64,000 bases of DNA from an uncultured archaeon (GCA_903904885.1 CAIVED010000021.1:17456-81455), one strand, 5' to 3'; counted from the first letter of the stretch, positions 13,066 to 59,455 are shown. The notes: generated by a model not told the origin, from the letters alone. Numbers and translations: made by a program.

Positions 13066-13250
13066 CCAACAAAAAACCGTTTGCTGGTTCTTGCATTAAT
13101 CTTTATGTTTGTTTTGCTTCTTCCGCTCAACTGCCATGCAAGAAGTGAATTTATTGCTGTTGGCAGGAAAATTTTTTCCGCAGTTCTGGCAATCAGGCAA
13201 AACTTGAAATCAAGGAACGGGGTTAAGAACTGCGCCAGAAAGATTATCGT
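13066..13250. repeat. Intergenic repeat family copy A (~185 bp) carrying conserved mini-ORF MFVLLLPLNCHAR...
   Basis: Shares ccgtttgctggttcttgcattaatct, ctgccatgcaagaa and ctggcaatc blocks with copies at 24748-24995 and 59271-59455. Confidence 0.6.
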
Positions 13251-13274
13251 TGATGAAAGCGCAAAAAAAGAGTC

Positions 13275-13631
13275 TTAAATCTCCTTAATCCCGTCCTTTG
13301 TCAATGCAGTCGGCTTGAACTTTATGTTGAGTTTCTGCAGTGCTGAAAGAATTGCCATGTGCTCCTTGCCGTCTCCTGAAACCAAATTAAGAGCCACTTC
13401 CTTGGTTTTTATGTTATCGCTAATTCCCTTTTTAATATCTTCAACAAGTTCTCCTACAGGTTTTCTATTGTCAATTACTACCAAAATCGCATTTTTTTCG
13501 TTTGTGAATTTCTCTTTTCCGAAATCATTTGTAATCAGAACTATGTTATCCCATGTGCCGTCTGCTATCAATCTTGCGACGTGGCCCCAGGTTCCCTTTC
13601 CTGTGCTTAAACATGCCAGTAATTCAACCAT
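13275..13631 (-). CDS. Hypothetical protein (118 aa)
   Basis: Intact ORF with no motif I can assign. The promoter has tatatataa about 20 nt upstream of the ATG, plus a GC box. Confidence 0.45.
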   Translation of the reverse strand: MVELLACLSTGKGTWGHVARLIADGTWDNIVLITNDFGKEKFTNEKNAILVVIDNRKPVGELVEDIKKGISDNIKTKEVALNLVSGDGKEHMAILSALQKLNIKFKPTALTKDGIKEI

Positions 13632-13917
13632 GCGGTTTGGATTAACAGCTTATATATAAAGTTAATGCGTCGCGTTCGGGACGTATTAATCTTTTATAGA
13701 TGCAAAATACTGCAATTTTATGAGATTTGTTAAACTAAGCGGCACAATATATGACTATTCCGAGTACAGGCTTAACATTTCTTCTCTTGTAAAAGCCATA
13801 AACGAGGAGATTGAAAACTCAGTAACCAGATTAGGATTCGTAAAGCAGAGGGAAAATATGTTTTACAACAAAAAATTCGACCTGGCACTCAAAATAGAAA
13901 TAAAGAACAAGTCAAAA

Positions 13918-14646
13918 CTAAAATTCGTCTAGGGCCTTCTGGTTTTTTTTGTGCCTCTCAAGGTGTTTCGGAGGTTCAATCTTCCTGTATTCAAATCCCC
14001 AGTCTTCAAGCATTTTCAGTGCATTTGCGCTGATTGCCGGGCAGGCGAGAATCCCGCGAACATTTTTTATTCCCTTCAGCGCCTTTATTTTTTCAACGTA
14101 TCTTCTCAATTGCGTTACCGCATTAAGGTCCCCGTTGAATCTCTTGCATTCCACAACAACCAGATTATTGTCCTTGTCATGGCCGAATACGTCAATGAAT
14201 CCGTATTTTGTGTGCTCCTCCCTGCTCAATGGCCGGAAATCATTGCCTATCAGCCCGGGGTTTTTCATTATCATGTCAGACATGTGCTTTTCTGTTCCCT
14301 GAAGTTCAATTTCCCTGTCATCCTCAAATTTCTGGCAGTGGACAAAATGTATCTTGCTGAATTCTATTTCCATGAACTCTTTCATCGCGGAATTTCTTGC
14401 CTTGAGCAGGATATTTTTTCCGTTTTCTGAAATCTCATGGACAGTTCCCTGCTTCATGTAATTCACAGGCGCGGTTCCCTTAGGCTGGTGCACAATAAGG
14501 CTTTTGTCTGATTTGATTATTACAATCCTGTCGCCTGAAGGAAGAAAGCTTTCAGCCCTGCCTGAGTAGGTTACTTCGCAGTCTGCCCCGATTATTATCA
14601 CATCCCCGGCATCAAGCGCATTTTTTATTTTCCCTGCGTAATCCAT
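13918..14646 (-). CDS. nucS: Endonuclease NucS (EndoMS), mismatch-specific RecB-like nuclease
   Basis: N-terminal MDYAGKIKNALDAGDVIIIGADCEVTYSGRAES and C-terminal GFIDVFGHDKDNNLVVVECKRFNGDLNAVTQLRRY, which is a PD-(D/E)XK D...ExK motif. The size is typical of NucS. The start is adjusted to the internal ATG because the tracked start is GTG. Confidence 0.75.
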   Translation of the reverse strand: MDYAGKIKNALDAGDVIIIGADCEVTYSGRAESFLPSGDRIVIIKSDKSLIVHQPKGTAPVNYMKQGTVHEISENGKNILLKARNSAMKEFMEIEFSKIHFVHCQKFEDDREIELQGTEKHMSDMIMKNPGLIGNDFRPLSREEHTKYGFIDVFGHDKDNNLVVVECKRFNGDLNAVTQLRRYVEKIKALKGIKNVRGILACPAISANALKMLEDWGFEYRKIEPPKHLERHKKNQKALDEF

Positions 14647-14666
14647 GGAAAAACAAAGCACTGCTT

Positions 14667-15482: not shown

Positions 15483-15683
15483 GAGGGCTTTCTGGGAATT
15501 TTAATTGTTTAAATAGTTTTGTTACCTGTTGAAGTAGCAAAAACAAAAGATTCGCGGAATAAGCTTCCTAACTGAAATTATTTTCATTATATGATATAGC
15601 GCATATTTATTTTTTATCCTGCAAATGTTTCTCCTCATTTGTATATAAAAAATTTTATAAACAAGCGGCAAATCCCTTTCTGA

Positions 15684-16235: not shown

Positions 16236-16283
16236 AAAAGTTTATATACGCCCCGCTCAATATATGCCTCTAAAGGTGATTTT

Positions 16284-17813
16284 TTGAAGAACCAAACAAT
16301 TGCGCTGCTTATCGGGATTTTTATTGTTGTTTCTCTGGCCAGTTTTTTGATTGTCCCTAAAAATATTGTTTACATCACCGGCAAGGCAAGCAGCGGAAGC
16401 TCAAACACTGCATTTAACCTTACCGAAGAGGTTTCTGTTCTTGTTACTAATGCAGTTGATTTTGGGGAAGGCAGGGTTGATGCAAATGCCAGTTATGCGA
16501 TTCTGGACAGCGAAGGCGGAGGCGGAAGCGCTATTGGATGGGCTAACATAACTGGCATGATAAATTCTCCCGCTACGCATGAGTTTCTCGCAACTGTTTA
16601 TGACCCTGCACTTGATGTTTTTATTGCCTATGGGGGGGACATTTATGATCCTGACACTGATAGCTATTCTCCGGATACTGAAACATGGATGTTTAATTAT
16701 TCCAATAAGGAGTGGACAAATCTGACTGCAACCGCAGGGGCTCCAAAAGCAATCTATAGTTTTGGAATGGTCTATGACAATTCTGCGAGAGGAATTATTA
16801 TGTGTGGGGGAGAGTACGATTTTTTTCAAGAAAACCAGTCCAATGAAACCTGGAAATTCAATTCAAGCATGAGGTGGGAAAATCTGAGCCCCTCAAACAC
16901 CCCTCCTTTCATAAGTGACTGGGACCCCGCGATGGCATTTGACAGCAAAAGAAATGTCACAGTGATGTTTGGAGGCTATGAAAATTGGGGTGTGGCATAT
17001 ATGAATGAAACCTGGGAGTATAATTCAAGCTCAAACAGCTGGACAAATAAAACAAAAGCCATAACCCCTCCAGCAAGGACTGATGCTTTTATGGCTTTTG
17101 ACAGCGAGAGAAATGTTACTGTTCTTATTGGGGGGGCAGGATCTTACTCATCAACTAGTCAGGACGTTTTTGAATATACTGGAACCGACTGGATAAATGT
17201 TACTGCATCTACAGGCTATGCCCCTGCCAATCCCCTTGGGCTATCCTATGATGCCTATCGTAAAAATATTGTTTTTGTTGCAGACTATGACACCTGGACC
17301 TATAATGGTACCGGATTTGTAAATGTTTCAGCTCCGTGGATTGGTGCTTTAGCATGGCAGCTAATGTCCTATGATTCAAGTGCGCAGAAAACATTATTTG
17401 TTTACCCTGATAACACCTGGGCGTACCCATCTTCAATCAGCGGCGGAGGAGGTGGCGGTTGTATCAATGGCACCTGGTCTTTTTCGCCGAGTTTTATTTA
17501 TGTTGAGAATGACGGCACTGTTGATATAAATGTTAACTACACTGCGAATAAGAATGCGGGGCAGTTTATTGGGGGCACCTCTCCAAGTTTCAAAATTAAA
17601 GGGGTTGTTGATGAGTCTGGTGCCTGTGCGGATTTGAATACCACGTATGCTGAGGTTTCCAATTCTACCGAGACTCCGCTTACTCTCTGCCCGGTTTTGA
17701 AGTACCAGAATGATGCGGACAGAATCAAGGTTCCTGCAAGGCTGGTTGTTCCCAGTGATGTTGCATCCGGGGTTCATAATTCAACAGTAACTTTCAGCGC
17801 AACTTTGGTTTAA
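16284..17813 (+). CDS. Secreted surface protein with Kelch-like beta-propeller core and conserved family C-terminal module (TTG start)
   Basis: An aaggtgat RBS sits 5 nt before the TTG. N-terminus KNQTIALLIGIFIVVSLASFLIV. Repeated NETW(K/E)(F/Y)N.S..W(T/E)N blades are followed by GG. There is a poly-Gly linker. The C-terminal module FIYVENDGTVDINVN...PARLVVPSDVASG is shared with three other genes. Confidence 0.7.
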   Translation: MKNQTIALLIGIFIVVSLASFLIVPKNIVYITGKASSGSSNTAFNLTEEVSVLVTNAVDFGEGRVDANASYAILDSEGGGGSAIGWANITGMINSPATHEFLATVYDPALDVFIAYGGDIYDPDTDSYSPDTETWMFNYSNKEWTNLTATAGAPKAIYSFGMVYDNSARGIIMCGGEYDFFQENQSNETWKFNSSMRWENLSPSNTPPFISDWDPAMAFDSKRNVTVMFGGYENWGVAYMNETWEYNSSSNSWTNKTKAITPPARTDAFMAFDSERNVTVLIGGAGSYSSTSQDVFEYTGTDWINVTASTGYAPANPLGLSYDAYRKNIVFVADYDTWTYNGTGFVNVSAPWIGALAWQLMSYDSSAQKTLFVYPDNTWAYPSSISGGGGGGCINGTWSFSPSFIYVENDGTVDINVNYTANKNAGQFIGGTSPSFKIKGVVDESGACADLNTTYAEVSNSTETPLTLCPVLKYQNDADRIKVPARLVVPSDVASGVHNSTVTFSATLV

Positions 17814-17868
17814 AATCACACTAACATTTATATACCGCCATTTCAATATATTCTTCTTAAAAGGTGAT

Positions 17869-19452
17869 TTGTTGAAGAACAATACAATTGCGCTGCTGGT
17901 GGGAATTCTTATTATAATCTCTTTGGCCAGTTTTTTAATTGTACCAAGGAGCATTGTTTATTTGACCGGCAGGGCAAGCAGCGGAAGCTCGAGTACTGCG
18001 TTTAATCTTACCGGCGAGGTTTCTGTTCTTGTTACGAATGCGGTGGATTTCGGGGAAGGCAGGGTTGATGCCAATGCCAGTTACGCAATACTTGACAGTT
18101 CTTTGGGAACTGGCGGCTCTTCAATCTTCGGCTGGTTCAATGTTACAGGGATTACCGGTGATAAGCCGCTTCTGGGCATCGACCAAGTTGCGGCCTACGA
18201 TTCAGCAAGGGATGTTTCTATTTTTTACGGCGGCTATGTGGGCGAAGGGTATAGTTTAAATGAAACCTGGCAGTTTAACTATTCCAGTAAGCATTGGACG
18301 AATTTGACAGACCTGTCAAGTGTTCCGCAACAGACAGAAACTTCAATGGTTTATGATTCTTCAATAGGCGCGATAATACTTTTCGGCGGATTCCCGGGAA
18401 ATGTAGGCGATTGCGGAAGTGGTTGCGGTTCAAATGAGACCTGGAAATTCAATTCAAGCCAAAAATGGGAAAAATTGAATCCTTCAGGTGAAAGTCCTCT
18501 ACCAATGCAATATCCTTCAATGGTTTTTGACAGCAAAAGAAATGTTACTGTTCTTTTTGGAGGGAGTATTATTCCTGGTGGCGCCTATTCAAATGAAACC
18601 TGGGAGTATGATGCGAGTTCAAATACCTGGACAAATAAGACCGGTCCTACAGCTCCTCCAACAAGGCTCATGTACTCCATGGCGTTTGATAGCGCAAGGA
18701 ATGTTACTGTTATTTTCGGAGGTAACACAGGAGCAGCAATTATTAACGATCTTTGGGAGTATAATGGCACTGACTGGGTTAATATAAGCACGGTGCATTC
18801 TCCATTACCACGATTCAATGCAGGAATGACCTATGATTCTGTAAGGAAAAGGGTTGTTCTTGCAGGAGGACAGGATGAAAATGCATCGACTTTAACTGAT
18901 ACCTGGGAGTATGATGGGTCTGATTGGACAGATACGGGCTATACTTCGTATGGTCCGATTGATACTAATACTTATTCTCGTGTTATTTTCGATACCCAAA
19001 TTGGCAGAACATTGCTTTTCTATGCTGAGGCCATTAGCGGTTTTGAGGAGGTCCAGGAGTATGGCAACATAACCGCTGGCGGAGGAGGAGGTGGCGGCTG
19101 TACCAACGGCACCTGGTCTTTTTCGCCGAGTTTTATCTACGTTGAGAATGACGGCACTGTTGACATAAATGTTAATTATACTGCGAATAAGAATGCAGGG
19201 CAGTTTATTGGGGGCACCTCTCCAAGTTTCAAAATTAAAGGGGTTGTGGATGAATCTGGTGCTTGCGCTGATTTGAATACCACGTATGCTGATGTTCCCA
19301 ATTCTACTGAGACACCTCTTACTTTATGCCCGCTTTTGAAGTACCAGAATGATGCGGACAGAATCAAGGTTCCTGCAAGGCTGGTTGTTCCCAGTGATGT
19401 TGCCTCTGGAATGCATAACTCAACCATAACCCTGACCGCAACCCAGGTTTGA
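17869..19452 (+). CDS. Tandem paralog of the 16284-17813 gene (Kelch-like surface protein; TTG start)
   Basis: The first ~220 nt and last ~390 nt are about 90-95% identical at nucleotide level to the upstream gene, while the central propeller is divergent. The RBS/TTG arrangement is the same. Confidence 0.7.
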   Translation: MLKNNTIALLVGILIIISLASFLIVPRSIVYLTGRASSGSSSTAFNLTGEVSVLVTNAVDFGEGRVDANASYAILDSSLGTGGSSIFGWFNVTGITGDKPLLGIDQVAAYDSARDVSIFYGGYVGEGYSLNETWQFNYSSKHWTNLTDLSSVPQQTETSMVYDSSIGAIILFGGFPGNVGDCGSGCGSNETWKFNSSQKWEKLNPSGESPLPMQYPSMVFDSKRNVTVLFGGSIIPGGAYSNETWEYDASSNTWTNKTGPTAPPTRLMYSMAFDSARNVTVIFGGNTGAAIINDLWEYNGTDWVNISTVHSPLPRFNAGMTYDSVRKRVVLAGGQDENASTLTDTWEYDGSDWTDTGYTSYGPIDTNTYSRVIFDTQIGRTLLFYAEAISGFEEVQEYGNITAGGGGGGGCTNGTWSFSPSFIYVENDGTVDINVNYTANKNAGQFIGGTSPSFKIKGVVDESGACADLNTTYADVPNSTETPLTLCPLLKYQNDADRIKVPARLVVPSDVASGMHNSTITLTATQV

Positions 19453-24715: not shown

Positions 24716-24747
24716 ATTCTTTTTATTTTGGTTCCAAACAATTTACA

Positions 24748-24995
24748 TCAACAAAAAATCCGTTTATTTTAGTTCTTGCATTACTGTTCATGTCGTTTTT
24801 CACTCTTCTGCCTTATTGCCATGCGCAAGAAAAGGCATAGCCTTTTCTGCGCGCAGAAAATTGAGCACAATTTTCTTGCGCAAGAATGAATTATTACCTG
24901 CTGAAAGCAGGTTAAACGCAGGCCTGGCAATCATGGCGGACAGTAAAAGCAGGAAGGAAAAATAAGGCCTGCCCAGAAAACGGGTTATTTTTTGA
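24748..24995. repeat. Intergenic repeat family copy B (with ~80-bp internal insertion containing perfect 18-bp palindrome ttttctgcgcgcagaaaa at 24844-24861)
   Basis: Shares tccgtttattttagttcttgcattact, ttgccatgcgcaagaa, ggcctggcaatcatggcgg and cagaaaacgggttatttttt with copies A and C. The mini-ORF is MSFFTLLPYCHAQEKA. Confidence 0.6.
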
Positions 24996-25052
24996 AAGTT
25001 TGCCAAAAAGCCAACCGAATGCTTTAAATACCTTTCCTCTTAAATTAGCCCC

Positions 25053-26650: not shown

Positions 26651-26651
26651 A

Positions 26652-33720: not shown

Positions 33721-33752
33721 GGTATTTAAAGTTTGCACGTCGCGGCCACAGC
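33721..33752 (+). promoter_or_regulatory. TATA (ggtatttaaag) plus GC box (gcacgtcgcggccac)
   Basis: Member of the recurrent TATA + ACGTSGCGGCC motif family. It is followed by a second TATA-like agatttataaatc (33758-33770) ahead of the lipoprotein gene. Confidence 0.5.
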
Positions 33753-37248: not shown

Positions 37249-37290
37249 GGTATTTAAACCTTGCACGTGGCGATGATGGCAACGTGAGAA
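37249..37290. promoter_or_regulatory. Repeat/promoter module ggtatttaaaccttgcacgtggcgatg (copy 1), palindromic TATA plus CACGTGGCG box
   Basis: 26 nt (37250-37275) are identical to 38461-38486. On the minus strand it reads gtgcaaggtttaaatac, a BRE/TATA, upstream of the Bro-N gene. Confidence 0.55.
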
Positions 37291-37827: not shown

Positions 37828-38390
37828 TTTATCAGTTCATAATAGCTTTCAATTCCGTGAAGTATCACATTGTTTGCTATTGCTTCCGAGCCTACTGTCA
37901 TTTTTTTTGAATTTTTCATTTCAATGAATTCAGCTTCGCTGAATATGTTTATATGAAGATCAAGAGGAATTGTGTCTGCGATGCGGTTTATTTCCTTTAT
38001 TTCATCAGGTACTATGAACAGAAGGTCTATGTCTGAATTGTTTTTGGCTGTTTTCTTTGCGTGGGATCCAAAAAGCAGAAGTATGAAAAGTTTTGTTTTC
38101 AGTCCGGAGACAAAGCTGTCCAGCATTACCTTGAGGTTTTTGTTTTTCAAAGTATCTTCTCTTCTTTCATATTCTGCCCGATAAATTAGAGGATTTGGGC
38201 GGGGGATTAATTCTATTTTTGCTGATTTGCCGAAAGCTGTTGTTTTTAGTATTCCCGTTTTTTCAAGCCTTTTGACTATTGTATGGGCGGTCTTGTAATC
38301 CTTTCCTGCTATCCTGGCAAGTCTGCTTATGTTCATGTCACCCTTGTTTTCTATCAAAGCCTTGATTATTGATGTTTCTTTGGTTCTCAT
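37824..38390 (-). CDS. Minimal nucleotidyltransferase (MNT, Pol-beta fold) fused to N-terminal winged HTH
   Basis: The N-terminus has ISRLARIAGKDYKTAHTIVKRLEKTGIL, a wHTH. The NTase motif is LLFGSHAKKTAKNNSDIDLLFIVPDE. Confidence 0.7.
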   Translation of the reverse strand: MRTKETSIIKALIENKGDMNISRLARIAGKDYKTAHTIVKRLEKTGILKTTAFGKSAKIELIPRPNPLIYRAEYERREDTLKNKNLKVMLDSFVSGLKTKLFILLLFGSHAKKTAKNNSDIDLLFIVPDEIKEINRIADTIPLDLHINIFSEAEFIEMKNSKKMTVGSEAIANNVILHGIESYYELIK

Positions 38391-38459: not shown

Positions 38460-38500
38460 TGTATTTAAACCTTGCACGTGGCGATGGAGACGGCGCAGGG
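38460..38500. promoter_or_regulatory. Repeat/promoter module tgtatttaaaccttgcacgtggcgatg + gagacggcgcaggg (copy 2)
   Basis: Identical 26-mer to copy 1. The extension gagacggcgYaggg is shared with the 40541-40554 element. It lies upstream of the MNT-HEPN operon on the minus strand. Confidence 0.55.
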
Positions 38501-43864: not shown

Positions 43865-45325
43865 TCATACCTCAAACGCCTCCCTCAAAACTGCTTCCAT
43901 CAATAACTCAGAATTCTTTTGGTTTTCTTTGACTCTGGTTTCTAATTCATCGCAAAGCTTCATTAATTGGTCAACTTTTTCAACAATACGCTTTTGTTCG
44001 AAGAGAGGTGGGAGGGGAAATAAGTACTCTCTCAAATAGTTTAGCGCGACAAATGATTGAACAGCCCCACTTGATTTTTCTTTCATAATAACTTCTGCAT
44101 ACCTTAAAAAATAAAGAAGATATTTAGAATTACTTAAATGAGTGTTGTAAAATTTAAAAAGTGCTACATTTTTTATACTGAAATTTGGTTCAATATCAAT
44201 TAAAACTGGATTTCCTATACTGCCAATCATAGCAAAGATTATGTCCCCTTTATCAACTTTTGAACGTTTTGATATCTCAATATGATCTTGATTTGAGATG
44301 TACTTAATATTATTCATATCCAGTTTTCCGTTGTAGATATTTTTACTAGTCACAAGAGGAAATCCTTCGTTGACATATTTGGGAGTATCATGTGTCCCAT
44401 CCCTCACATCAAAAACGTCTTGTAATCTTGCCCACACCCATCCGCCAGGTAGTTCATAATGAATTTCTTCTTTTGTGATTGGTGGCAGAGGTTTGTCTTT
44501 CTTGATTTTCTTTTCTTTAATTAATTTCTCTTTCTCTGCTTTAATCTTCTTTAACAATTCTGATGCAGGTTCGTCTTTTGGGTCTTGCGGAACAAGTTTT
44601 CCAGAAACAGCTTCTTGAAGGATTGATTTTCTTAAGTGCGAAATTAATTCAAAATCGTCTAAATAAATATTTCTTATAGTATTGTAACCTTCTTTGGTAA
44701 GAATAAACTCTTTTAATTGAGGAATTATTGCAGCATACCCTCTTACGTCCTCCACTAACTTAGTTTTTTCTATATGAAACAGTAATTTTTGAACATTTTC
44801 TTGAATTTCTAATGGGGGAATAGGAACTTCCGTATTTTTTACGACATCTTGGCTAATGTTAGGTTGCGCACCTCCAAAACTTTGTTGTATATATTCAAAT
44901 CTTTTTTGTCTAAAGAACCAAAATAAGTATTCTTTAGAGATTCCTTTTTCAGGATAAACTGCGCAAACTGCTTGATTGGACGCAGCTTCAAATCCCAATA
45001 TTCCCGTCTTTCCAACTGTGGCGCCATAAAGAGCTAATACTAAAGTTCCTTTTGGATATAACTTAGCGCTTGAATTTTTTAAGGCATCTTCAGTTATGGT
45101 TTCCTCTGATACCATGATTATAGTATCATTCAGCTCTCCAGACTTAATCCATGCAATGTTTCCACCATAATAGGCTGATATTGACCTATTAGGTGTTCCC
45201 CCACTTGTAGTTTTTGCAATATCTTTAATCTTTTTTGAAGGATATTTTTGTGATAGATAATTAAAGAGTATTTTAGCTACACCTACTGAAGTATCTACTT
45301 TGTTGTAAAATTCAAGCAATCTCAT
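43865..45325 (-). CDS. hsdS: Type I restriction-modification specificity subunit HsdS (two TRDs)
   Basis: Conserved spacers are VPIPPLEIQENVQKLL and LFPLPPLFEQKRIVEKVDQLMKLCDELE. Its start overlaps the hsdM stop by 4 nt. Confidence 0.85.
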   Translation of the reverse strand: MRLLEFYNKVDTSVGVAKILFNYLSQKYPSKKIKDIAKTTSGGTPNRSISAYYGGNIAWIKSGELNDTIIMVSEETITEDALKNSSAKLYPKGTLVLALYGATVGKTGILGFEAASNQAVCAVYPEKGISKEYLFWFFRQKRFEYIQQSFGGAQPNISQDVVKNTEVPIPPLEIQENVQKLLFHIEKTKLVEDVRGYAAIIPQLKEFILTKEGYNTIRNIYLDDFELISHLRKSILQEAVSGKLVPQDPKDEPASELLKKIKAEKEKLIKEKKIKKDKPLPPITKEEIHYELPGGWVWARLQDVFDVRDGTHDTPKYVNEGFPLVTSKNIYNGKLDMNNIKYISNQDHIEISKRSKVDKGDIIFAMIGSIGNPVLIDIEPNFSIKNVALFKFYNTHLSNSKYLLYFLRYAEVIMKEKSSGAVQSFVALNYLREYLFPLPPLFEQKRIVEKVDQLMKLCDELETRVKENQKNSELLMEAVLREAFEV

Positions 45326-46758
45326 TTTTTAATACTTTTCTGAATAGTATCGATAATTTCAGATATTTTTTTGCTGTTTTCATTTAATTTTGTCAATAAT
45401 TCAGGTATTGTATGATTTTGAGAAGTTTCAACATTACTTGGATTATTCACATCCAAATTATAATTCCTTTTCTTTATTTCATCAATGGTTACTTTCCAGC
45501 AATTCTTTGAGAATTTCTCATCTTCTCTGTTCTTCCACCATTCTTTTTCTAAGTCAAACTCTTCAATTCTGATTGGCTTGGTTTTATTGTATGTTTTAGC
45601 TCCTTCTGGAAGTGGATGTTCAAAATACCATATCTCTTTTGTTCCTTTGCCAGATTTTTCAAAGAACAAGAGATTTGTTCTAATCCCAGTATATGGACTA
45701 AACACCCCGTTTGGCAATCTAACAATTGTATGAAGATTAAATTCAGATAGCAATTTTTCTTTTATTCTTGTTTTTACTCCCTCACCAAATAAGAATCCAT
45801 CAGGTAAAACCATTCCACATCTTCCTTCATCTCGAAGTAATTTAGTAATCAAAACTAAAAATAAATCTGCGGTTTCTCTAGTTCTATAAGCTGATGGAAA
45901 GTTTGATTCTATTCCTGGTTCCTCTGCGCCCCCAAATGGTGGATTGGTTACGACAACATCAACCATATCTGCGGGGCCATAATCTGCTAAAGGTCTAGCC
46001 AATGAATTGTCATGTCTTATATTTGGAACTTCAACGCCATGAAGAATCATATTGGTAGTGCAAAGCAAATGAGCAAGAGGCTTTTTTTCAATTCCGTTAA
46101 TATTCTTCTGTAAAGTGTCCCAATCTTCATCGCTTTTTGCGTTTTTCTTCATCTTTTCCAAAGCACAAATCAAAAAGCCTCCTGTTCCGCAAGCAGGATC
46201 AAGGACTTTTTCTCCCAGTTTTGGATTAACCATGTCAACAATAAACTGAGTTACTGCTCTAGGCGTGTAGTATTCTCCTGCATTTCCTGCAGATTGTAAA
46301 TCAGAAAGAATTTTCTCATATATATCATTAAACATATGCCTATCTTCTGACTTGTTGAAATCAACCTCATTTAGCTTATTGATAACTTGTCTAATTAGAG
46401 TTCCAGACTTCATGTAATTATAAGCATCTTCAAAAACTTCTTTGATAATAAACCCTTTTGGGTCATCTTCTTTAGACACATTTAATCCTTTTAATGTTTT
46501 GAATAATTTTCCAATGAAATCAAGAAGTTCATCACCAGTTATTCCTTCTTTATCTGCTGCCCAATTTCTCCATCTGAATTTTTCAGGAAGAGGGGATTTG
46601 TATTCTTCATTTTCTAATTCCCATTCTTTTTCTTTATCATCGAATATCTTTAGAAAAATCATCCAAACCAACTGAGAAATCCTTTGGGCATCTCCATCTA
46701 CTCCTGCATCTTGACGCATTATATCTTGTATTGATTTTATTATTGTTGATATTGACAT
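45322..46758 (-). CDS. hsdM: Type I R-M N6-adenine DNA methyltransferase HsdM
   Basis: Motif I is VLDPACGTGGFL. Motif IV is VVTNPPFGG. Confidence 0.9.
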   Translation of the reverse strand: MSISTIIKSIQDIMRQDAGVDGDAQRISQLVWMIFLKIFDDKEKEWELENEEYKSPLPEKFRWRNWAADKEGITGDELLDFIGKLFKTLKGLNVSKEDDPKGFIIKEVFEDAYNYMKSGTLIRQVINKLNEVDFNKSEDRHMFNDIYEKILSDLQSAGNAGEYYTPRAVTQFIVDMVNPKLGEKVLDPACGTGGFLICALEKMKKNAKSDEDWDTLQKNINGIEKKPLAHLLCTTNMILHGVEVPNIRHDNSLARPLADYGPADMVDVVVTNPPFGGAEEPGIESNFPSAYRTRETADLFLVLITKLLRDEGRCGMVLPDGFLFGEGVKTRIKEKLLSEFNLHTIVRLPNGVFSPYTGIRTNLLFFEKSGKGTKEIWYFEHPLPEGAKTYNKTKPIRIEEFDLEKEWWKNREDEKFSKNCWKVTIDEIKKRNYNLDVNNPSNVETSQNHTIPELLTKLNENSKKISEIIDTIQKSIKK

Positions 46759-46760
46759 TT

Positions 46761-49085
46761 TTAACTCCCCGCATATAATTGTTCTTTAATCTCGTTTAGA
46801 GCTTTAAGGTACTTTTCTTTTCCACCAAAAGATTCTATTATTTCTACAGGTGTTCCAAATTCTCTAAATGGATTGACTTTCAAAATAGTCATTGTTTCTA
46901 TATTCTCTATTCCTTCGTCTGCATATTTGTCAAGAAGAGCTTCTATTATTTTACGCGCTTTTTCACCATATTTTGTGAAATAATTTCTCTTTTTAACATT
47001 ATTTGCTCTTTCTTTTCTTGTTAAAGGTTTTTGGTCAAAAGCGACATGGCAAACTAAGTCAAATTCATCGAAGTTTTTCCCAACTTCTTCTTTTAGTTCA
47101 TGAAGAAATATTCCATTTTCTATCATTTCCTGGATTATTGCAGATTTTTTATCTGTGGATTTCCATTTTTTTAGGAAATTGTCTAGTGACTTAAACTCTT
47201 TTGTCGCTGTTTTCTTTGTATAATCCTTTAACGATTCTGTGATTAGTTTTCCCTCTTTGTCAAATATTTGCACTCTTTCATTTAGAACTCTTACTTCTAC
47301 ATTATTAACATAATACTTTCTGGGTTTATCTGGCGATTCTTTCAGCAAATAAACTTGTTCCTGAACAGAACCATAAACTTTCTCAATCGGGGCAGTTTCA
47401 GGAATTATAATTTCTTCATCTGCTGTAAACTCCTCACATTGTACTGGTTCACCATCAAAGTCAGGATCAGCAAATAAATTTGTTACTTGTCTAAAATCCA
47501 TGATAGTAAAATAAGATTTATCATAGTCTTCTCTTATTCTGGTTCCCCTTCCAATAATCTGTTTAAATTCAGTCATAGATTGTATGTTGCTTTCCAGAAC
47601 AATTAATTTGCATGTCTGAGCATCAACCCCCGTATTAAGTAGTTTTGATGTTGTTGCTATAACTGGATATTTTGATGATGGGTCGATGAAATTATCTAGT
47701 TCTCGTTTACCCAGAATATCATCTCCTGTGATTTTTACAACATATTTTGAATTTTTTGTGACTAAATCCTTATTTTCATTACAGAGCGCTCTTCTCATTC
47801 TTTCAGCATGTTCTATATCTACACAGAAAACTATTGTTTTGTCAAATCTATTTGTCTTTTTTAGATATTCTGTAATTTTTTTAGCAACTAATATTGTTCG
47901 GGCGTCTAGTACAATATTCCTATCATAATCTTTTATATTATAGATCCTATCGGGTATTTCATTGCCATATTTGTCAATTTTTCCTTTTTCAGGTCTATAT
48001 CCTTCAACGTCTTTATCTATTGTAATTCTTATAACTTTATATGGTGCTAAGAACCCATCCTGAATTCCTTGTTTTAATGAATAAACATAAAGAGGTTTTC
48101 CAAAATAATGACTATTTGAAACATCTCTATCCTCTTTTGGTGTTGCAGTCAACCCAATTTGTGTTGCTTTAGGGAAATATTCTAAAACCTCTCTCCATTG
48201 AGAATTGATTGCTGCGCTACCTCTATGGCACTCATCTACAATTATTAAATCAAAGAATTCTTTTGAAAATTGCTTATAGATATTTTTCCATTCTTCGTTA
48301 CCTGTAACTGATTGGTATAATGCAAGGTAAACTTCATAAGATGTGTCAACCTTTCTGTTAGTTATTCTAGTCATAACCTTGCTGAAAATCTTAAAGTCAT
48401 TATTACGTGGTTGAGTTAATAATACATCTCTATCAGTTAAGAAGAGTACTCTTTTTTTTGTTTTTGATTCTAATAACTTATGCATGATTTGAGAAGCCAC
48501 ATAAGTTTTTCCAGTTCCAGTAGCTAAAACTAGCAAAATTCTATCTTGACCTTTAGCAACTGCTTCTACAGTTCTATTAATTGCAATTTGCTGATAATAT
48601 CTTGGTTTCTTTTGTCCAGCATAATAATCTTGTGTAATAATTTCTTCCTGCTTCTTGCTTATCCCTTTCCATTCCTTATATCGATTCCACAATTCATCTG
48701 GACTTGGAAATTTGTCCAAAGACAACTCTTTTTCAACTTCTTTAGAGTTACCTGTTTTATCATGCTCAATAAATCCATCTCCATTTGAGCTGTAAACAAA
48801 AGGAATATCTAGAATTTCTCCATAATCCAGAGCCTGCTGGATTCCCGAACCAATATCGTGATTATTATCTTTTGCTTCAATTATTGCTATTGGCAAATTT
48901 GGCTTATAATAAAGAATGTAGTCTGCTCTTTTCTTTTCCCCTCTTATTGTTTTATCTCCTTTTAAAAGAATTCTCCCATCTGTAAAAGTAACTTCTTCTC
49001 TAAACAATTGCCAGCCCGAATGTTTAATCGAAGGAGTTATGTATTTTGTACAAATATCCCTTTCAGAGAGTGATTTTTTATTCAT
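46761..49085 (-). CDS. hsdR: Type I R-M restriction subunit HsdR (SF2 helicase/endonuclease)
   Basis: Walker A is LVLATGTGKTYVA. The DEAH box is IIVDECHRGS. An N-terminal nuclease region is present. 774 aa. Confidence 0.9.
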   Translation of the reverse strand: MNKKSLSERDICTKYITPSIKHSGWQLFREEVTFTDGRILLKGDKTIRGEKKRADYILYYKPNLPIAIIEAKDNNHDIGSGIQQALDYGEILDIPFVYSSNGDGFIEHDKTGNSKEVEKELSLDKFPSPDELWNRYKEWKGISKKQEEIITQDYYAGQKKPRYYQQIAINRTVEAVAKGQDRILLVLATGTGKTYVASQIMHKLLESKTKKRVLFLTDRDVLLTQPRNNDFKIFSKVMTRITNRKVDTSYEVYLALYQSVTGNEEWKNIYKQFSKEFFDLIIVDECHRGSAAINSQWREVLEYFPKATQIGLTATPKEDRDVSNSHYFGKPLYVYSLKQGIQDGFLAPYKVIRITIDKDVEGYRPEKGKIDKYGNEIPDRIYNIKDYDRNIVLDARTILVAKKITEYLKKTNRFDKTIVFCVDIEHAERMRRALCNENKDLVTKNSKYVVKITGDDILGKRELDNFIDPSSKYPVIATTSKLLNTGVDAQTCKLIVLESNIQSMTEFKQIIGRGTRIREDYDKSYFTIMDFRQVTNLFADPDFDGEPVQCEEFTADEEIIIPETAPIEKVYGSVQEQVYLLKESPDKPRKYYVNNVEVRVLNERVQIFDKEGKLITESLKDYTKKTATKEFKSLDNFLKKWKSTDKKSAIIQEMIENGIFLHELKEEVGKNFDEFDLVCHVAFDQKPLTRKERANNVKKRNYFTKYGEKARKIIEALLDKYADEGIENIETMTILKVNPFREFGTPVEIIESFGGKEKYLKALNEIKEQLYAGS

Positions 49086-53990: not shown

Positions 53991-54024
53991 GAACCTTCTT
54001 AAATCTCTACAATATTGTAATCTC

Positions 54025-55239: not shown

Positions 55240-55264
55240 ATCATAAGAAATATTTCCTCTCTGA

Positions 55265-56971: not shown

Positions 56972-56994
56972 GATAAACTATTTAAATACCAATA

Positions 56995-58449
56995 ATGGTC
57001 TATTCTGGTAAAATGCCAATAACAATAGATGAGATGGCCGCATTCTGCAAGAGGAAGGGCTTTGTTTTCAGGAGTTCGGATATCTACGGCGGATTTGCCG
57101 GGTTTTGGGATTTTGGGCCATTGGGAGTTGAGCTATTCAACAACATAAAGCAGGATTTCTGGAAATATTTTGTTCACCAAAAAGAAAACATGGTTGGAAT
57201 TGAGGCAAGCATTATCTCACACCCAAGAACATGGAAGGCATCAGGCCACATCGCAAGCTTTGCGGATGTCGCAGTTGTCTGCAAGAAATGCAAGAAAGCA
57301 ACAAAAATAGACAAATCAGAAGTAGGAAATGTAAAATGTGATTGCGGTGGGGAATATGAAATCAAGGGCGAATTCAATCTATTATTCAAAACAAAAGTGG
57401 GCGCTTTAGATTCTGAAGATGCATATTTGAGGGGAGAAACCGCCCAGGGAATGTTCATGGATTTCAAATTAGTCAACGAGACATCAAGATTGAAACTTCC
57501 ATTCGGGATTGCTCAAATAGGAAGATGCTTCAGGAATGAAATCGCGCCCAGGGATTTTCTTTTCAGGAGCAGGGAGTTCAATATAGGAGAATTCGAGTTT
57601 TTCATACATCCTGATGAAAAGAAATGCAGTTTGCTGACAAAAACTCATCTCAGTCTAAAATTAAAACTTCTGGATGCCCAGACACAGGAAAAAGGCAAAG
57701 ACACTTTGATAGAAACAACAATAGGCAAGATGCTGGAAGCAAAAAAGCTTGAGGAGTGGCATGCATATTGGCTTGCAGAGCAGTTGCTTTGGTTCAATTC
57801 TTTGGGGCTTACAAAAATAAAGGTAAGGGAGCACATGAAAAGCGAATTGTCCCATTACTCATCAGCGACATTTGATCTGGACTATGAGTATCCTTTCGGA
57901 AGCAAGGAGGTTGCGGGAAATGCAAACCGCGGCCAGTATGATTTAACCCAGCACATCAAGGAGAGCGGCCAGAAAATGGAGGTCTTTGACGAGGAAACAA
58001 AGAAAAATGTAATACCAAAAGTAATAGAGCCGACATTCGGAATGGAAAGAGTATTCCTGGCAGTCCTTGTTGAAGCCTATGAGTATGACAAAAAAAGGGA
58101 AAATATAGTCCTTAAACTATTGCCGAAACTTGCTCCTGTAAAGGTTGCAGTTTTCCCGCTGCTTTCAAACAAGCCGGAGATTGTCAAAAAGGCAAGGGAA
58201 GTTTTTGATGCATTAAAAACAGAGTTCACATCCCAATTAGACATTTCAGGAAGCATCGGCAGGAGATACGCCCGCCAGGATGAAATCGGAACGCCATACT
58301 GCATAACCATTGATTTTGACTCTTTAGAGAAAGATGATGTCACAATAAGGGACAGGGACTCTACAGACCAGAAGAGAATAAAAATCGTTAAAATAGCTGA
58401 AATTTTGGAAAAGCTTTTAAAAGGCAAAACAGAGTTTAAGGATTTATGA
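56995..58449 (+). CDS. glyS: Glycyl-tRNA synthetase (archaeal/eukaryal alpha2 type)
   Basis: MAAFCKRKGFVFRSSDIYGGFAGFWDFGPLGVEL is the class II GlyRS N-terminus. 484 aa with a C-terminal anticodon-binding domain. Confidence 0.85.
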   Translation: MVYSGKMPITIDEMAAFCKRKGFVFRSSDIYGGFAGFWDFGPLGVELFNNIKQDFWKYFVHQKENMVGIEASIISHPRTWKASGHIASFADVAVVCKKCKKATKIDKSEVGNVKCDCGGEYEIKGEFNLLFKTKVGALDSEDAYLRGETAQGMFMDFKLVNETSRLKLPFGIAQIGRCFRNEIAPRDFLFRSREFNIGEFEFFIHPDEKKCSLLTKTHLSLKLKLLDAQTQEKGKDTLIETTIGKMLEAKKLEEWHAYWLAEQLLWFNSLGLTKIKVREHMKSELSHYSSATFDLDYEYPFGSKEVAGNANRGQYDLTQHIKESGQKMEVFDEETKKNVIPKVIEPTFGMERVFLAVLVEAYEYDKKRENIVLKLLPKLAPVKVAVFPLLSNKPEIVKKAREVFDALKTEFTSQLDISGSIGRRYARQDEIGTPYCITIDFDSLEKDDVTIRDRDSTDQKRIKIVKIAEILEKLLKGKTEFKDL

Positions 58450-59267
58450 AAGAACGGGTTTACTTCCTTATTTCTATGCTTTTCACCCTGATGATACTAG
58501 CCCTGATTGGGAATAACCATATGCCAACAGGCTATGCAACCTTCGCTTCGCCTGACCAGGTTCAGACAGCGCTGAATGTCCTGTCAACAGACGGTTCAAT
58601 GGAGCTCCTTGCAGAGGGTGTGGAGATATGCGCTGTGGTCGAAATCAGCAGCGAAACAACATACTATTACAGCATCATAAAGACCGGGCCAACAGTTGAC
58701 ATGGCAGAAGAATACTGCGCAGACCCCGGCCAGGACAATCTAATCATCAAATTCAATTCATTTGACGACCTTCTTTCAGCAAGCAAGAATCCCAAGGCGT
58801 TCATAGCAGAAAAAATGAACACAGGCTATTACATTTTTCCCTCAAACTATGTGAGCATCGGCGGAGAGTCAAGCTGCCCGGCGTCATTCCAGCAGAACTA
58901 CTGCGCAGCCTTGTACGTTGACTTCTCAAAAACCGAGATTGCAGACATGGGCCTGGCCTGCTGCGCAAACTATGAGCTGACCGCTGAACAGCAGGCAAAG
59001 GTTGATGAGGTGAAGAAAGGAAAGGCAGGTTCTCTGCAGTCACCCATGGACTTCCTTTTCAGCACAACCGGAATCATAATAATAATCATGGTGATTATTT
59101 TCATAGTGATTGTTTCCTCGCTTGTTGTCCTGAAGCCGAAAAACCCGTTGGTTGAATATGTGCATACCACAAGAATGCAGGGCTATGCAGACGAGGACAT
59201 AAAGAATTCCCTGGTTCAGTCCGGCTGGGACGAGAAGACGATTGATGATGCTCTAACTAAGAAATAA
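58446..59267 (+). CDS. Secreted single-pass membrane protein with conserved cytoplasmic tail (paralogous in architecture to the 11677-12459 gene)
   Basis: Signal peptide. The C-terminal TM is IIIIIMVIIFIVIVSSLVVL. The tail VEYVHTTRMQGYADEDIKNSLVQSGWDEKTIDDALTKK is present. Confidence 0.55.
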   Translation: MKERVYFLISMLFTLMILALIGNNHMPTGYATFASPDQVQTALNVLSTDGSMELLAEGVEICAVVEISSETTYYYSIIKTGPTVDMAEEYCADPGQDNLIIKFNSFDDLLSASKNPKAFIAEKMNTGYYIFPSNYVSIGGESSCPASFQQNYCAALYVDFSKTEIADMGLACCANYELTAEQQAKVDEVKKGKAGSLQSPMDFLFSTTGIIIIIMVIIFIVIVSSLVVLKPKNPLVEYVHTTRMQGYADEDIKNSLVQSGWDEKTIDDALTKK

Positions 59268-59270
59268 TCT

Positions 59271-59455
59271 CTTCCAACAAAATTCCGATTGCTGGTTCTT
59301 GCATTAATCTCAATGTTTATTCTGCTTCTTATGCTTGAGTGCCATGCAAGAATTATGTAATTACTTGCCGTAGGCAAGTTAAAGCAGGCCTGGCAATCGC
59401 GGCAAACATCTGAAGCAAGAAATAGAATTAAGGTCTGCCAAGAAAACGGGATATT
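59271..59455. repeat. Intergenic repeat family copy C, mini-ORF MFILLLMLECHARIM, hairpin acttgccgtaggcaagt
   Basis: Shares tccgattgctggttcttgcattaatct, gtgccatgcaagaa, ggcctggcaatcgcggc and agaaaacgggatattt with copies A and B. Confidence 0.6.

What the first reader, a model, noticed from the sequence alone, without database searches (positions are those of the whole stretch)
13066..59455. ~190-bp intergenic repeat family (3 copies) with conserved CHA(R/Q) mini-ORF and conserved distal blocks
Copies lie at 13066-13250, 24748-24995 and 59271-59455. They share three ordered blocks: caacaaaa-ccgtttgctggttcttgcattaatct, then ctgccatgcaagaa, then ggcctggcaatcRYggc ... agaaaacgggWtattt. Each encodes a short ORF beginning M(F/S)xLLL..(N/E/Y)CHA(R/Q), of length 65, 16 and 15 aa respectively. 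Copy B carries an ~80-bp insertion containing the perfect palindrome ttttctgcgcgcagaaaa. Copy C has the hairpin acttgccgtaggcaagt. Every copy begins just after the stop of a plus-strand gene. Conservation outside the mini-ORF argues for an RNA or regulatory element, such as an sRNA, a leader-peptide attenuator or a MITE-like element, rather than a protein gene.
Basis: seen in the sequence. Interest (0 to 1): 0.65.

Follow-up and report, generated by a model that had tools for sequence, protein, structure and literature searches.

The report
Structured intergenic repeat in DPANN archaeon
Three copies of a roughly 190-base non-coding element, absent from the RNA family library searched, were each inserted just after a gene's stop codon in a Woesearchaeota-type archaeon. 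The element folds into helices kept intact by compensating mutations, the 'mini-ORF' in it is not a gene, and its function is unknown.

Summary
The three copies are real: a covariance model places them at 13068-13255, 24751-24994 and 59276-59460, all on the + strand, and finds no others in the window. One metagenome scan gave 15 more copies, all from three related JGI metagenome datasets.

The mini-ORF is not conserved. The ATG is present in only 8 of 17 copies, variation shows no codon periodicity, and synonymous positions are invariant.

The conserved feature is a fold on the + strand:
- P2 is an invariant 9-bp helix, UUCUUGCAU/AUGCAAGAA.
- P3 is a hairpin in which all 7 pairs show compensatory changes.
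- P4 is an 8-bp helix in which 4 pairs covary.
- No shuffle out of 500 reached the observed covariation score.
- G-U pairs outnumber A.C mismatches 12 to 3, which favours the + strand.

Rfam 15 has no matching family. The host is a Woesearchaeota/Pacearchaeota-type DPANN archaeon.

Syntenic contigs of seven relatives lack the element, and the genes it separates are tightly joined there at nearly all the sites compared. All three window copies are therefore lineage-specific insertions. No target-site duplication or terminal inverted repeat was detected.

The element follows a co-directional gene at 12 of 14 independent loci.

Best reading: a dispersed, formerly mobile, structured non-coding element that probably acts as an RNA 3'-end module. 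The function is inferred, not shown.

The parts
13044..13274 (+). Copy A, whole inserted segment, lying between the stop of the MTS methyltransferase gene and the stop of the convergent 118-aa gene. Conserved core 13068-13255.
   Evidence: CM hit of 157 bits. In relative L099 the same spacer is 88 unrelated nt, and in L101 the two genes overlap.
13088..13144 (+). Copy A, domain P2. The helix pairs TTCTTGCAT (13088-13096) with ATGCAAGAA (13136-13144). Its U-rich loop carries GCTTCTTCCGC (13116-13126).
   Evidence: 9 bp, paired in 14 of 14 aligned copies and invariant apart from one U-G.
13180..13233 (+). Copy A, domain P4. The helix pairs GCAGTTCT (13180-13187) with AGAACTGC (13226-13233). Its loop carries CTGGCAATC..GGCAAA.
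   Evidence: 8 bp, 4 pairs with changes on both sides, 97% of cells paired.
24716..24998 (+). Copy B, whole inserted segment between the secD stop codon and the pre-existing promoter region of the MFS gene. Conserved core 24751-24994.
   Evidence: CM hit of 129 bits. The SecD-to-MFS spacer is 1-46 nt in six relatives with SecD 78-85% identical. Homology to the L104 spacer resumes at TTTGCCAAA, about 24999.
24825..24879 (+). Copy-B-specific 55-nt extra segment inside the 3' strand of P2, flanked by the direct repeat GCAAGAA. It contains three abutting hairpins, including the palindrome at 24843-24860.
   Evidence: Absent from all 16 other copies. With it, copy B has an MFE z-score of -4.4.
24897..24911 (+). 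Copy B, hairpin P3 (CCTGCTGAAAGCAGG).
   Evidence: All 7 pairs of P3 show changes on both sides across the family.
24918..24972 (+). Copy B, domain P4. The helix pairs GCAGGCCT (24918-24925) with AGGCCTGC (24965-24972).
   Evidence: Compensatory relative to copy A: UU/AA there, GC/GC here.
59268..59480 (+). Copy C, whole inserted segment between the stop of the 273-aa membrane-protein gene and the stop of the convergent 28-aa ORF. Conserved core 59276-59460.
   Evidence: CM hit of 180 bits. In L099 the two genes are 3 nt apart. In L036 an OB-fold gene occupies the site.
59296..59352 (+). Copy C, domain P2 (TTCTTGCAT 59296-59304 paired with ATGCAAGAA 59344-59352).
   Evidence: The single-sequence MFE fold of copy C reproduces P2, P3 and P4.
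59363..59379 (+). Copy C, hairpin P3 (ACTTGCCGTAGGCAAGT).
59384..59438 (+). Copy C, domain P4 (GCAGGCCT 59384-59391 paired with AGGTCTGC 59431-59438, including one G-U pair).

Best explanation
This is a lineage-restricted family of non-coding intergenic elements in Woesearchaeota-type DPANN archaea. The conserved core is about 190 nt and the inserted unit about 215-230 nt.

Shown:
- The + strand folds into three helices. P2 is an invariant 9-bp helix closing a U-rich loop of about 39 nt that carries GCUUCUUCUGC. P3 is a variable hairpin, in most copies with tandem G.A pairs and an NGCA loop. P4 is a covarying 8-bp helix closing a loop of about 41 nt that carries CUGGCAAUC..GGCAAA..AAGCARGAA.
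- The core is bracketed by an A-rich 5' tract and a U-rich 3' tract.
- The copies were inserted into otherwise collinear gene order, right after stop codons, and usually in the orientation of the upstream gene.

Inferred:
- The element is transcribed as the 3' extension of the upstream mRNA. That transcript ends at the element's oligo-U tract, the archaeal termination signal.
- It then acts as a portable RNA 3'-end module, serving as terminator, 3'-end protection or a protein-binding platform. This is comparable to bacterial REP/BIME, ERIC or Correia elements.
- It spread by an unidentified transposition-like process. The fold is kept either for host use or for mobilisation.
For: Structure:
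- RNAalifold and pair counts on 14 full copies give 94.5% of cells paired, against 33-49% when the partners are slid.
- 11 pairs show changes on both sides, and no shuffle out of 500 reaches the observed covariation score.
- G-U pairs outnumber A.C mismatches 12 to 3, which favours folding of the + strand.

Not coding: variation is equal across the three codon positions (entropy 0.86, 0.91, 0.86) and the ATG is present in 8 of 17 copies.

Insertions: sites A, B and C are empty in the syntenic relatives L099 to L106. The CM finds no copy in 75 kb (L099-L103) plus 12 kb (L104-L106) from those relatives. It also finds none in 1.15 Mb from 80 GTDB Nanoarchaeia species.

Maintenance: in the orthologous pair L003/L005 the element is 83% identical, against 67% at four-fold degenerate sites of the flanking gene. 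For L003/L014 the figures are 67% against 47-51%.

Context:
- The upstream gene is co-directional at 12 of 14 independent loci, a binomial p of about 0.007 by my own arithmetic.
- The element starts 0-35 nt after the stop codon at 10 of them.
- The upstream genes are functionally unrelated: secD, L35Ae, an MTS methyltransferase, HIT, FKBP and others.
- Most copies end in a T-run.
Against: - There are no transcript data, so RNA has not been separated from single-stranded DNA as the folded molecule.
- MFE z-scores are modest and similar on the two strands (-1.8 and -1.7).
- Single-sequence folds often prefer a long fold-back to P2 plus P4.
- P2 never varies, so covariation cannot test it.
- The terminal helix P1 is only weakly supported (p = 0.046).
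- Two loci, L001/L007 and L011, have a divergent upstream neighbour. There the element cannot be a read-through product.
- Archaeal termination needs only oligo-U, so a 190-nt fold is more than a terminator requires.
- Close relatives express the same genes without the element, so it is dispensable for them.
- L003 and L014 are no more alike (67%) than random paralogues (57-76%). Independent insertions at the same site cannot be excluded for that pair.
Confidence: 0.45

Rival explanations
1. An independent small-RNA gene family. Each copy has its own promoter, with the A-rich box acting as BRE/TATA, and its own oligo-U terminator. It produces a trans-acting RNA of about 150-190 nt whose invariant blocks bind a protein or another RNA.
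For: - L001/L007 and L011 have divergent upstream neighbours, so those copies need their own promoter. L007 has TTTATAAT 23 nt upstream of block S1.
- The A-box sits at a fixed distance from S1.
- The invariant single-stranded blocks and the roughly four-fold excess of GCA triplets (counted by eye on one copy) are what an RNA-protein or RNA-RNA interface would look like.
- Copies are maintained at each locus.
Against: - The 12-of-14 orientation bias towards the upstream gene is unexpected for self-contained genes.
- If the A-box were the TATA box, transcription would start inside or just after S1. That would remove the 5' strand of P2 from the RNA. This follows from the spacing seen at this genome's tRNA-Phe promoter.
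- No Rfam family matches.
- Close relatives have no copy at all in 87 kb, which is odd for a core regulatory RNA.
Confidence: 0.25
2. A non-autonomous DNA transposon whose fold matters in single-stranded DNA. Examples are an IS200/IS605-type palindrome-associated element or a REP-like element mobilised by a HUH transposase. Under this reading any RNA role is incidental.
For: - The three copies are insertion-polymorphic in collinear gene order.
- No target-site duplication and no terminal inverted repeat were found, as expected for this class.
- The strand-specific structure with G-T tolerance fits one folded DNA strand as well as it fits RNA.
- The element is quasi-palindromic. Its reverse strand also matches the model, with E-values from 1e-12 to 1e-2.
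- All three window copies lie on the same strand.
Against: - No transposase, TnpB or RAYT gene lies next to any of the 18 copies. No such gene turned up among the 40 window proteins scanned against Pfam; about 27 further ORFs were not scanned.
- No conserved 4-5-nt target motif is seen at the left junction.
- Copies are only 57-83% identical, with no young near-identical copies.
- The orthologous copies L003/L005 are better conserved than four-fold degenerate sites.
- Rfam's transposon-associated RNA models, assuming Rfam 15 carries them (from memory, not checked), do not match.
Confidence: 0.2
3. A small hydrophobic peptide gene, with the RNA fold serving translational control. Candidates are a type I toxin, a leader peptide, or the remnant of a signal peptide (K/R..VLAL..LLL..CHA|R).
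For: - The frame through S1 to Sa is free of stop codons in 16 of 17 copies, against 12.1 expected (p = 0.02).
- It reads like an n-region, h-region, c-region signal peptide.
- Multi-copy, lineage-specific, structured loci of about 200 nt resemble type I toxin-antitoxin loci.
Against: - The ATG is present in only 8 of 17 copies and there is no alternative conserved start codon.
- Four copies put Lys or Arg in the middle of the hydrophobic stretch.
- Variation shows no third-position excess.
- Synonymous positions of GTT CTT GCA TTA and TGC CAT GCA are invariant. Changes in the GCUUCUUCUGC block fall on codon positions 1 and 2 (by eye).
- Counted from the ATG, the peptides of B and C are 16 and 15 aa, too short to span a membrane.
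- The frame relative to the upstream gene differs between copies.
- A profile search of 5.8 billion proteins found only the window's own ORF.
Confidence: 0.03
4. A DNA-level array of protein-binding half-sites of the TTCTTGC/GCAAGAA type occurring in both orientations. It would act as an insulator, an operator or a bidirectional terminator, with no folded nucleic acid involved.
For: - The motif recurs five or six times per copy in both orientations (S1, S2, Sa, S3, Sb and the 3' strand of P4).
- P2 is invariant, so it is equally a perfect inverted repeat.
- A-run and T-run ends would terminate convergent transcription from both sides. The downstream gene is convergent in A, the L003/L005/L014 locus, L004, L006, L007 and L012.
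Against: Compensatory changes in P3 and P4, with strand-asymmetric G-U pairs, require base pairing and not sequence readout.
Confidence: 0.05

Closest known systems
Bacterial structured intergenic repeats: REP/BIME, ERIC (IRU), Neisseria Correia elements, pneumococcal BOX/RUP
   Same: - Short, non-coding and multi-copy.
- Located between genes, typically at 3' ends or between convergent genes.
- Transcribed with neighbouring genes and folded into hairpins that affect termination and mRNA stability (established knowledge).
- Insertion-polymorphic between related genomes.
   Different: - The host is archaeal (DPANN) and there is no sequence similarity.
- The core is far larger than a REP and has three helices and long conserved loops rather than a single palindrome.
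- There are no Correia-type inverted repeats or TA duplication.
- Copies are old and diverged (57-83% identical).
- No RAYT-type gene has been seen.
MITEs, including the archaeal examples in Sulfolobus and haloarchaea
   Same: - Size class, non-coding, dispersed.
- Absent from orthologous sites of relatives.
- Quasi-palindromic with AT-rich ends.
   Different: - No terminal inverted repeats beyond A-rich and T-rich tracts.
- No target-site duplication above chance.
- No related autonomous element found.
- Compensatory evolution of internal helices, and conservation above four-fold degenerate sites.
IS200/IS605-derived palindrome-associated elements and their TnpB omega-RNAs
   Same: - No target-site duplication and no terminal inverted repeat.
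- Strand-specific hairpins.
- Size of about 150-250 nt.
- Could encode a structured RNA.
   Different: - No tnpA or tnpB nearby.
- No conserved target tetranucleotide.
- No pair of similar subterminal hairpins.
- No match to Rfam models.
Type I toxin-antitoxin loci (hok/sok, ibs/sib, aapA/isoA)
   Same: - Structured loci of about 200 nt with a short hydrophobic reading frame.
- Possible pairing between the 5' and 3' ends.
- Multi-copy, lineage-specific and insertion-polymorphic.
   Different: - The reading frame lacks a conserved start codon and any coding signature.
- The peptides would be too short.
Integron attC sites
   Same: - Sit directly after the stop codon of a co-oriented gene.
- The structure is conserved more than the sequence.
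- Fold on one strand.
   Different: - No R''/R' core sites.
- The flanking genes are housekeeping genes in conserved synteny, not cassette arrays.
- No integrase.
- Longer than attC sites.

Membership tests
Any Rfam 15 RNA family | Match to a curated covariance model | tested here: not met
   Searching the whole window at gathering thresholds found only tRNA-Phe. Five element-bearing loci searched at E <= 5 gave only chance-level hits, none overlapping the element except L007 728-830 (rnk_pseudo, 25.5 bits against a gathering score of 55), which overlaps its first 33 nt.
MITE | Terminal inverted repeats | tested here: not met
   The only end complementarity is an A-rich 5' tract against a U-rich 3' tract. 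Cognate ends pair barely better than non-cognate ends (p = 0.046).
MITE | Target-site duplication flanking each copy | tested here: not met
   Flank-to-flank local alignments are no better than shuffled controls at 13 copies. The same holds at the three sites whose boundaries are fixed by empty-site comparison (summed p = 0.29).
MITE | Presence/absence polymorphism at orthologous sites | tested here: met
   Site A is empty in L099 to L102, site B in L099 to L106 and site C in L099/L100 and L036.
MITE | Related autonomous element with the same ends and a transposase | tested here: inconclusive
   None was found in the window, in 15 metagenome loci or in about 1.24 Mb from relatives. The rest of the host genome could not be searched.
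IS200/IS605-type PATE or REP | Y1/HUH transposase (TnpA or RAYT) or TnpB in the genome or nearby | tested here: inconclusive
   No such domain appeared in the 40 window proteins scanned or next to any copy. About 27 window ORFs and the rest of the genome were not scanned.
IS200/IS605-type PATE or REP | Conserved 4-5-nt target sequence abutting the left end | tested here: not met
   The left junctions read TGCC, CATC, TTCC, TTCT, TTAA, TTTT and others, with no shared motif.
Type I toxin or leader-peptide gene | Conserved start codon and protein-level constraint on the short ORF | tested here: not met
   The ATG is present in 8 of 17 copies, entropy per codon position is 0.86, 0.91 and 0.86, and synonymous sites are invariant.
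Leader-peptide attenuator or riboswitch (5' cis-regulator) | Lies upstream of, and co-oriented with, the regulated gene | tested here: not met
   The downstream gene is convergent in A, the L003/L005/L014 locus, L004, L006, L007 and L012.
Integron attC | R''/R' core sites (RYYYAAC..GTTRRRY), cassette array, intI | tested here: not met
   Most copies begin AATAAAA rather than RYYYAAC, and their 3' ends do not fit GTTRRRY (by eye). The flanking genes are syntenic housekeeping genes.
Structured non-coding RNA (generic) | Helices supported by compensatory substitutions | tested here: met
   All 7 pairs of P3 and 4 of the 8 pairs of P4 show changes on both sides, and no shuffle out of 500 reaches the covariation score.
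Structured non-coding RNA (generic) | A discrete transcript | not testable with these tools
   No expression data are available for this uncultured lineage.

The most novel reading that the evidence does not exclude
The element is a previously unknown class of archaeal structured RNA that is itself the mobile unit. It could be a retro-mobile or transposon-borne RNA gene, for example an orphan guide or scaffold RNA working with a nuclease or recombinase encoded elsewhere in the genome. Alternatively it could be a protein-sequestering RNA with multiple GCA motifs that has recently colonised gene 3' ends in one DPANN lineage.
Probability: 0.12. Interest if true: 0.75.

Novelty: new variant of a known kind. 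Interest (0 to 1): 0.5.

Why it matters
- DPANN archaea have tiny, gene-dense genomes, and I know of few non-coding elements described in them.
- This family has covariation-supported helices, no Rfam match, and a clear record of recent insertion into otherwise collinear housekeeping regions. One insertion splits a tightly linked secD-MFS gene pair.
- If the RNA works as a portable 3'-end module, it would be an archaeal counterpart of bacterial REP/ERIC-type elements.
- It could also help in studying how archaeal transcripts are terminated and stabilised.
- If it partners with a protein, it marks an unknown ribonucleoprotein or mobility system.
- It is also a practical annotation warning. Gene callers have already predicted a 57-aa 'protein' from copy A.

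Tried and rejected
- **GTDB genome scan:** the exact pattern GTTCTTGCATTA-N33-TGCCATGC gave no hit in the species representatives.
- **Viral contigs:** a relaxed pattern gave two matches, and neither matches the model.
- **Plasmids and phages:** blastn in 'distant' mode found nothing.
- **Relatives, GTDB:** the covariance model found nothing in 80 ProRS loci (1.15 Mb) from GTDB Nanoarchaeia.
- **Relatives, syntenic:** the model found nothing in eight syntenic contigs from seven close relatives.
- **Terminal helix P1:** cognate against non-cognate duplex energies gave only p = 0.046, so P1 is kept as tentative.
- **Loop-loop pairing:** GCUUCUUCUGC against AAGCARGAAGC was tested in two registers. 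They gave 80% and 66% of cells paired, with no covariation beyond shuffles, so this is left unproven.
- **Pairing inside the P2 loop:** a search for covarying column pairs found nothing convincing.
- **Long fold-back:** S1 pairing with the 3' strand of P4 is predicted for several single sequences. It was rejected as the conserved fold because by inspection copies B, C and L006 break it while keeping P4.
- **K-turn or hammerhead in P3:** the tandem G.A pairs have no 3-nt bulge and there is no CUGANGA core (by inspection).
- **Long target-site duplications:** these looked plausible by eye at all three sites but are not above chance.
- **Peptide search:** a frame-0 peptide profile against 5.8 billion proteins found only the window's own ORF. 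The contig look-up for that ORF failed.
- **Literature:** a search for DPANN structured RNAs returned nothing relevant.

Full report
**1. Observation**

Within the window GTTCTTGCATTA occurs only at 13087, 24772 and 59295. Each occurrence is followed, after exactly 33 nt, by TGCCATGC.

A covariance model built later places the copies at 13068-13255, 24751-24994 and 59276-59460. All are on the + strand, with E-values of 1e-27 to 1e-39, and the model finds no other copy in the window.

The palindrome in copy B and the hairpin in copy C are as described. Each copy begins 8-35 nt after the stop codon of a + strand gene. These genes encode an MTS-type methyltransferase, SecD and a 273-aa membrane protein.

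Two details need correcting. The extra segment in copy B is 55 nt (24825-24879). The 65-aa ORF of copy A starts at a TTG codon.

**2. More copies, and what is actually conserved**

The exact pattern gave nothing in the GTDB species representatives. In JGI metagenomes it gave 16 loci, of which 15 are true relatives (L010 is a chance match). All 15 come from three related datasets (Ga0315268, Ga0315275 and Ga0315281), and none is identical to a window copy.

Across the 17 copies the ATG of the mini-ORF is replaced by AAG, CTG, ATA, ATT or CGG in nine. Four copies place Lys or Arg inside the 'hydrophobic' stretch. Variation is spread evenly over the three codon positions (entropy 0.86, 0.91, 0.86), and the synonymous positions of GTT CTT GCA TTA and TGC CAT GCA never change.

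The frame is free of stop codons in 16 of 17 copies, against 12.1 expected (p = 0.02). This is weak evidence, and the U-rich composition together with the invariant blocks can explain it. The mini-ORF is therefore a side-effect of nucleotide-level conservation.

A profile of the notional peptide, searched against 5.8 billion predicted proteins, found only the 57-aa ORF that a gene caller had predicted from copy A itself.

**3. Structure**

I aligned fourteen full-length copies (alignment A2, with copy B's extra segment removed) and folded the alignment with RNAalifold. It gave three helices:
- **P2** pairs UUCUUGCAU with AUGCAAGAA. It is 9 bp and paired in every copy. It never varies except for one U-G pair.
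- **P3** is a hairpin whose 7 pairs all show changes on both sides, for example CCUGCU/AGCAGG, CUUGCC/GGCAAG and AACUUUC/GAAAGUU.
- **P4** is an 8-bp helix in which four pairs covary: GCAGUUC/GAACUGC, GCAGGCC/GGCCUGC, GCAAUUC/GAAUUGC, GUAAUUC/GAAUUAC and GCAGCUC/GAGCUGC.

Overall 94.5% of cells are paired, against 33-49% when the partners are slid by 1-3 columns. No shuffle out of 500 reaches the observed covariation score. G-U pairs outnumber A.C mismatches 12 to 3, so it is the + strand that folds.

P2 closes a U-rich loop of about 39 nt that carries the nearly invariant GCUUCUUCUGC. P4 closes a loop of about 41 nt that carries CUGGCAAUC, GGCAAA, AAGCARGAA and UUAAG. In most copies P3 carries tandem G.A pairs below a G-C or A-U pair and an NGCA loop.

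Several further pairings were tested and are not established:
- A terminal helix P1, between the A-rich 5' tract and the U-rich 3' tail, is only weakly supported (p = 0.046).
- Loop-loop pairings are compatible with the sequences but have no covariation support.
- No pairing inside the P2 loop was found.

Thermodynamic support is modest, with a mean z-score of -1.8 on the + strand and -1.7 on the - strand. Single-sequence folds often prefer a long fold-back. This reflects the quasi-palindromic layout, which also lets the reverse strand match the model weakly. By inspection the fold-back is broken in copies B, C and L006, where P4 is nevertheless kept, so I take P2-P3-P4 as the conserved fold.

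No Rfam 15 family matches, either at gathering thresholds or at E <= 5.

**4. Host and distribution**

The window encodes archaeal proteins, including NucS, Nop5, fibrillarin and SecDF. Its ProRS is at most 75% identical to those of GTDB genomes named Woesearchaeota, Pacearchaeota or Nanoarchaeota.

The model finds nothing in 1.15 Mb surrounding the ProRS gene in 80 such species. The family is therefore narrow in distribution.

**5. The copies are insertions**

SecD homologues led to syntenic contigs of close relatives. The contigs and their SecD identities are L103 at 85%, L105 and L106 at 82%, L104 at 80%, L099 and L100 at 78%, and L101 and L102 at 75%. L099/L100 and L101/L102 are two contigs of the same relative. 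Gene order is the same as in the window, but the model finds no copy in them. The three sites compare as follows:

| Site | Genes on either side | Spacer in the window | Spacer in relatives |
|---|---|---|---|
| A | MTS gene and convergent 118-aa gene | 231 nt | 88 unrelated nt in L099; genes overlap in L101 |
| B | secD and MFS gene | 337 nt | 1-46 nt in six relatives |
| C | 273-aa gene and convergent 28-aa ORF | about 215 nt | 3 nt in L099; an OB-fold gene in the more distant L036 |

At site B the MFS promoter (TTTAAATACC) already exists in L104 and L105, directly after the secD stop codon. In the window, homology to that spacer resumes right after the element.

All three copies are therefore gains in the window's lineage. 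They are not at synteny breakpoints.

Candidate long target duplications that I saw by eye are no better than chance. There are no inverted terminal repeats beyond the A-rich and T-rich ends, and no shared target motif.

**6. Age and selection**

Copies are 57-83% identical to one another, and A, B and C are 64-71% identical. There are no young near-identical copies.

L003, L005 and L014 carry the element at the same locus, between the L35Ae gene and a convergent membrane-protein gene of 152-154 aa:
- Between L003 and L005 the element is 83% identical, while four-fold degenerate sites of the flanking gene are 67% identical.
- Between L003 and L014 the figures are 67% against 47-51%.

This points to purifying selection after insertion. 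However, L003 and L014 could be independent insertions at one site. The neighbouring spacer in L003/L005 also looks well conserved, at about 80% by eye.

One copy (L004) is truncated after P3.

**7. Context**

Across 14 independent loci the upstream neighbour is co-directional in 12, a binomial p of about 0.007 by my own arithmetic. The element starts within 35 nt of the stop codon in 10 of them.

The exceptions are L001/L007, where the upstream gene is a divergent TYW3-like gene, and L011, where no co-directional upstream gene is seen. By eye a T-arm-like motif suggests a divergent tRNA gene there, although ARAGORN called none.

In A, the L003/L005/L014 locus, L004, L006, L007 and L012 the downstream gene is convergent, which rules out a 5' leader. 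The upstream genes have nothing in common functionally.

Most copies end in a T-run. Oligo-T is the archaeal termination signal (established knowledge).

No transposase, reverse transcriptase or integrase lies near any copy. None appeared among the 40 window proteins scanned against Pfam; about 27 further ORFs were not scanned.

**8. Interpretation**

Shown:
- The element is non-coding and dispersed.
- It was inserted in this lineage.
- It has a strand-specific base-paired core and long invariant unpaired blocks.

Inferred:
- Because it is nearly always co-oriented with, and abuts, an upstream gene and carries its own U-tract, it is most simply read as a portable RNA 3'-end module. It could serve in termination, in protection from 3' exonucleases, or as a protein platform.
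- It would be an archaeal analogue of REP/BIME, ERIC or Correia elements that spread by an unknown transposition-like route.

Two rivals remain serious. One is a self-contained sRNA gene family, since two loci need their own promoter. The other is a transposon whose fold matters in single-stranded DNA, because the lack of duplications and inverted repeats and the strand specificity fit that class. The peptide and pure DNA-site readings are unlikely.

The element fails the defining tests for MITE, attC, type I toxin and leader peptide. I therefore file it as a new variant of the known kind 'structured intergenic repeat', and not as a member of any named family.

**9. Verdict**

It is partly wrong: the mini-ORF is not conserved and the element is not an attenuator.

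Interest is moderate. The element is absent from Rfam 15 and well supported as a structure, but its function and its mode of spread are open.

Noticed in passing
window 37250-37275 and 38461-38486 (degenerate third copy at 33722-33747): A 26-bp exact direct repeat, GTATTTAAACCTTGCACGTGGCGATG, brackets a HEPN (37300-37827, - strand) and MNT-nucleotidyltransferase (37824-38390, - strand) gene pair. It looks like the boundary of a duplicated or mobile toxin-antitoxin cassette.
   Followed up: partly
window about 31400-55000: This is a low-GC stretch (0.32-0.39). It carries a Bro-N protein, the HEPN/MNT pair, a type I restriction-modification system (hsdS, hsdM and hsdR at 43865-49085) and a PD-(D/E)XK nuclease. 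In relative L099 the class-I aaRS and ProRS genes that flank this stretch are separated by only one AAA-ATPase gene. The stretch is therefore probably an inserted defence island.
   Followed up: partly
L099 20900-21000 compared with window 59648-59723: The tRNA-Phe of the relative carries a 35-nt insert in the D-arm region that the window's tRNA-Phe lacks. It may be a non-canonical archaeal tRNA intron. The upstream TTTAAAT promoter box is conserved in both.
   Followed up: no
window 59485-59571 (- strand): A 28-aa hydrophobic mini-ORF (MEETYSTIIKFIAAMVLVFAIMAGLGYI) has a homologue at the same position in L099 (MEDWHKDMVKIIASMVVVFVVLMMLGYI, translated by hand). It is therefore probably a real small membrane-protein gene.
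   Followed up: partly
window 16284-17813 and 17869-19452: Two tandem paralogous Kelch-repeat protein genes contain DNA stretches that are 83-92% identical.
   Followed up: no
window 24999-25052: Copy B split what is a tightly linked secD-MFS gene pair in six relatives (spacer 1-46 nt). The MFS gene keeps a TTTAAATA box 22 nt upstream of its ATG, which suggests a leaderless transcript.
   Followed up: partly
L012, about 35 nt upstream of its element; L004 1132-1310: L012 has an S1-like motif (TTGCTCTTGCATATT) just upstream of its element, possibly the remnant of a second copy. The L004 copy is truncated after helix P3 and overlaps the end of a convergent gene.
   Followed up: no
window 6516-11684: A 1722-aa protein with three LamG/concanavalin-like domains is followed by a 266-aa membrane protein. 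The C-terminal motif of that protein (..GWSDLIIDSHLKK) resembles the C-terminus of the 273-aa protein upstream of copy C (..GWDEKTIDDALTKK).
   Followed up: no
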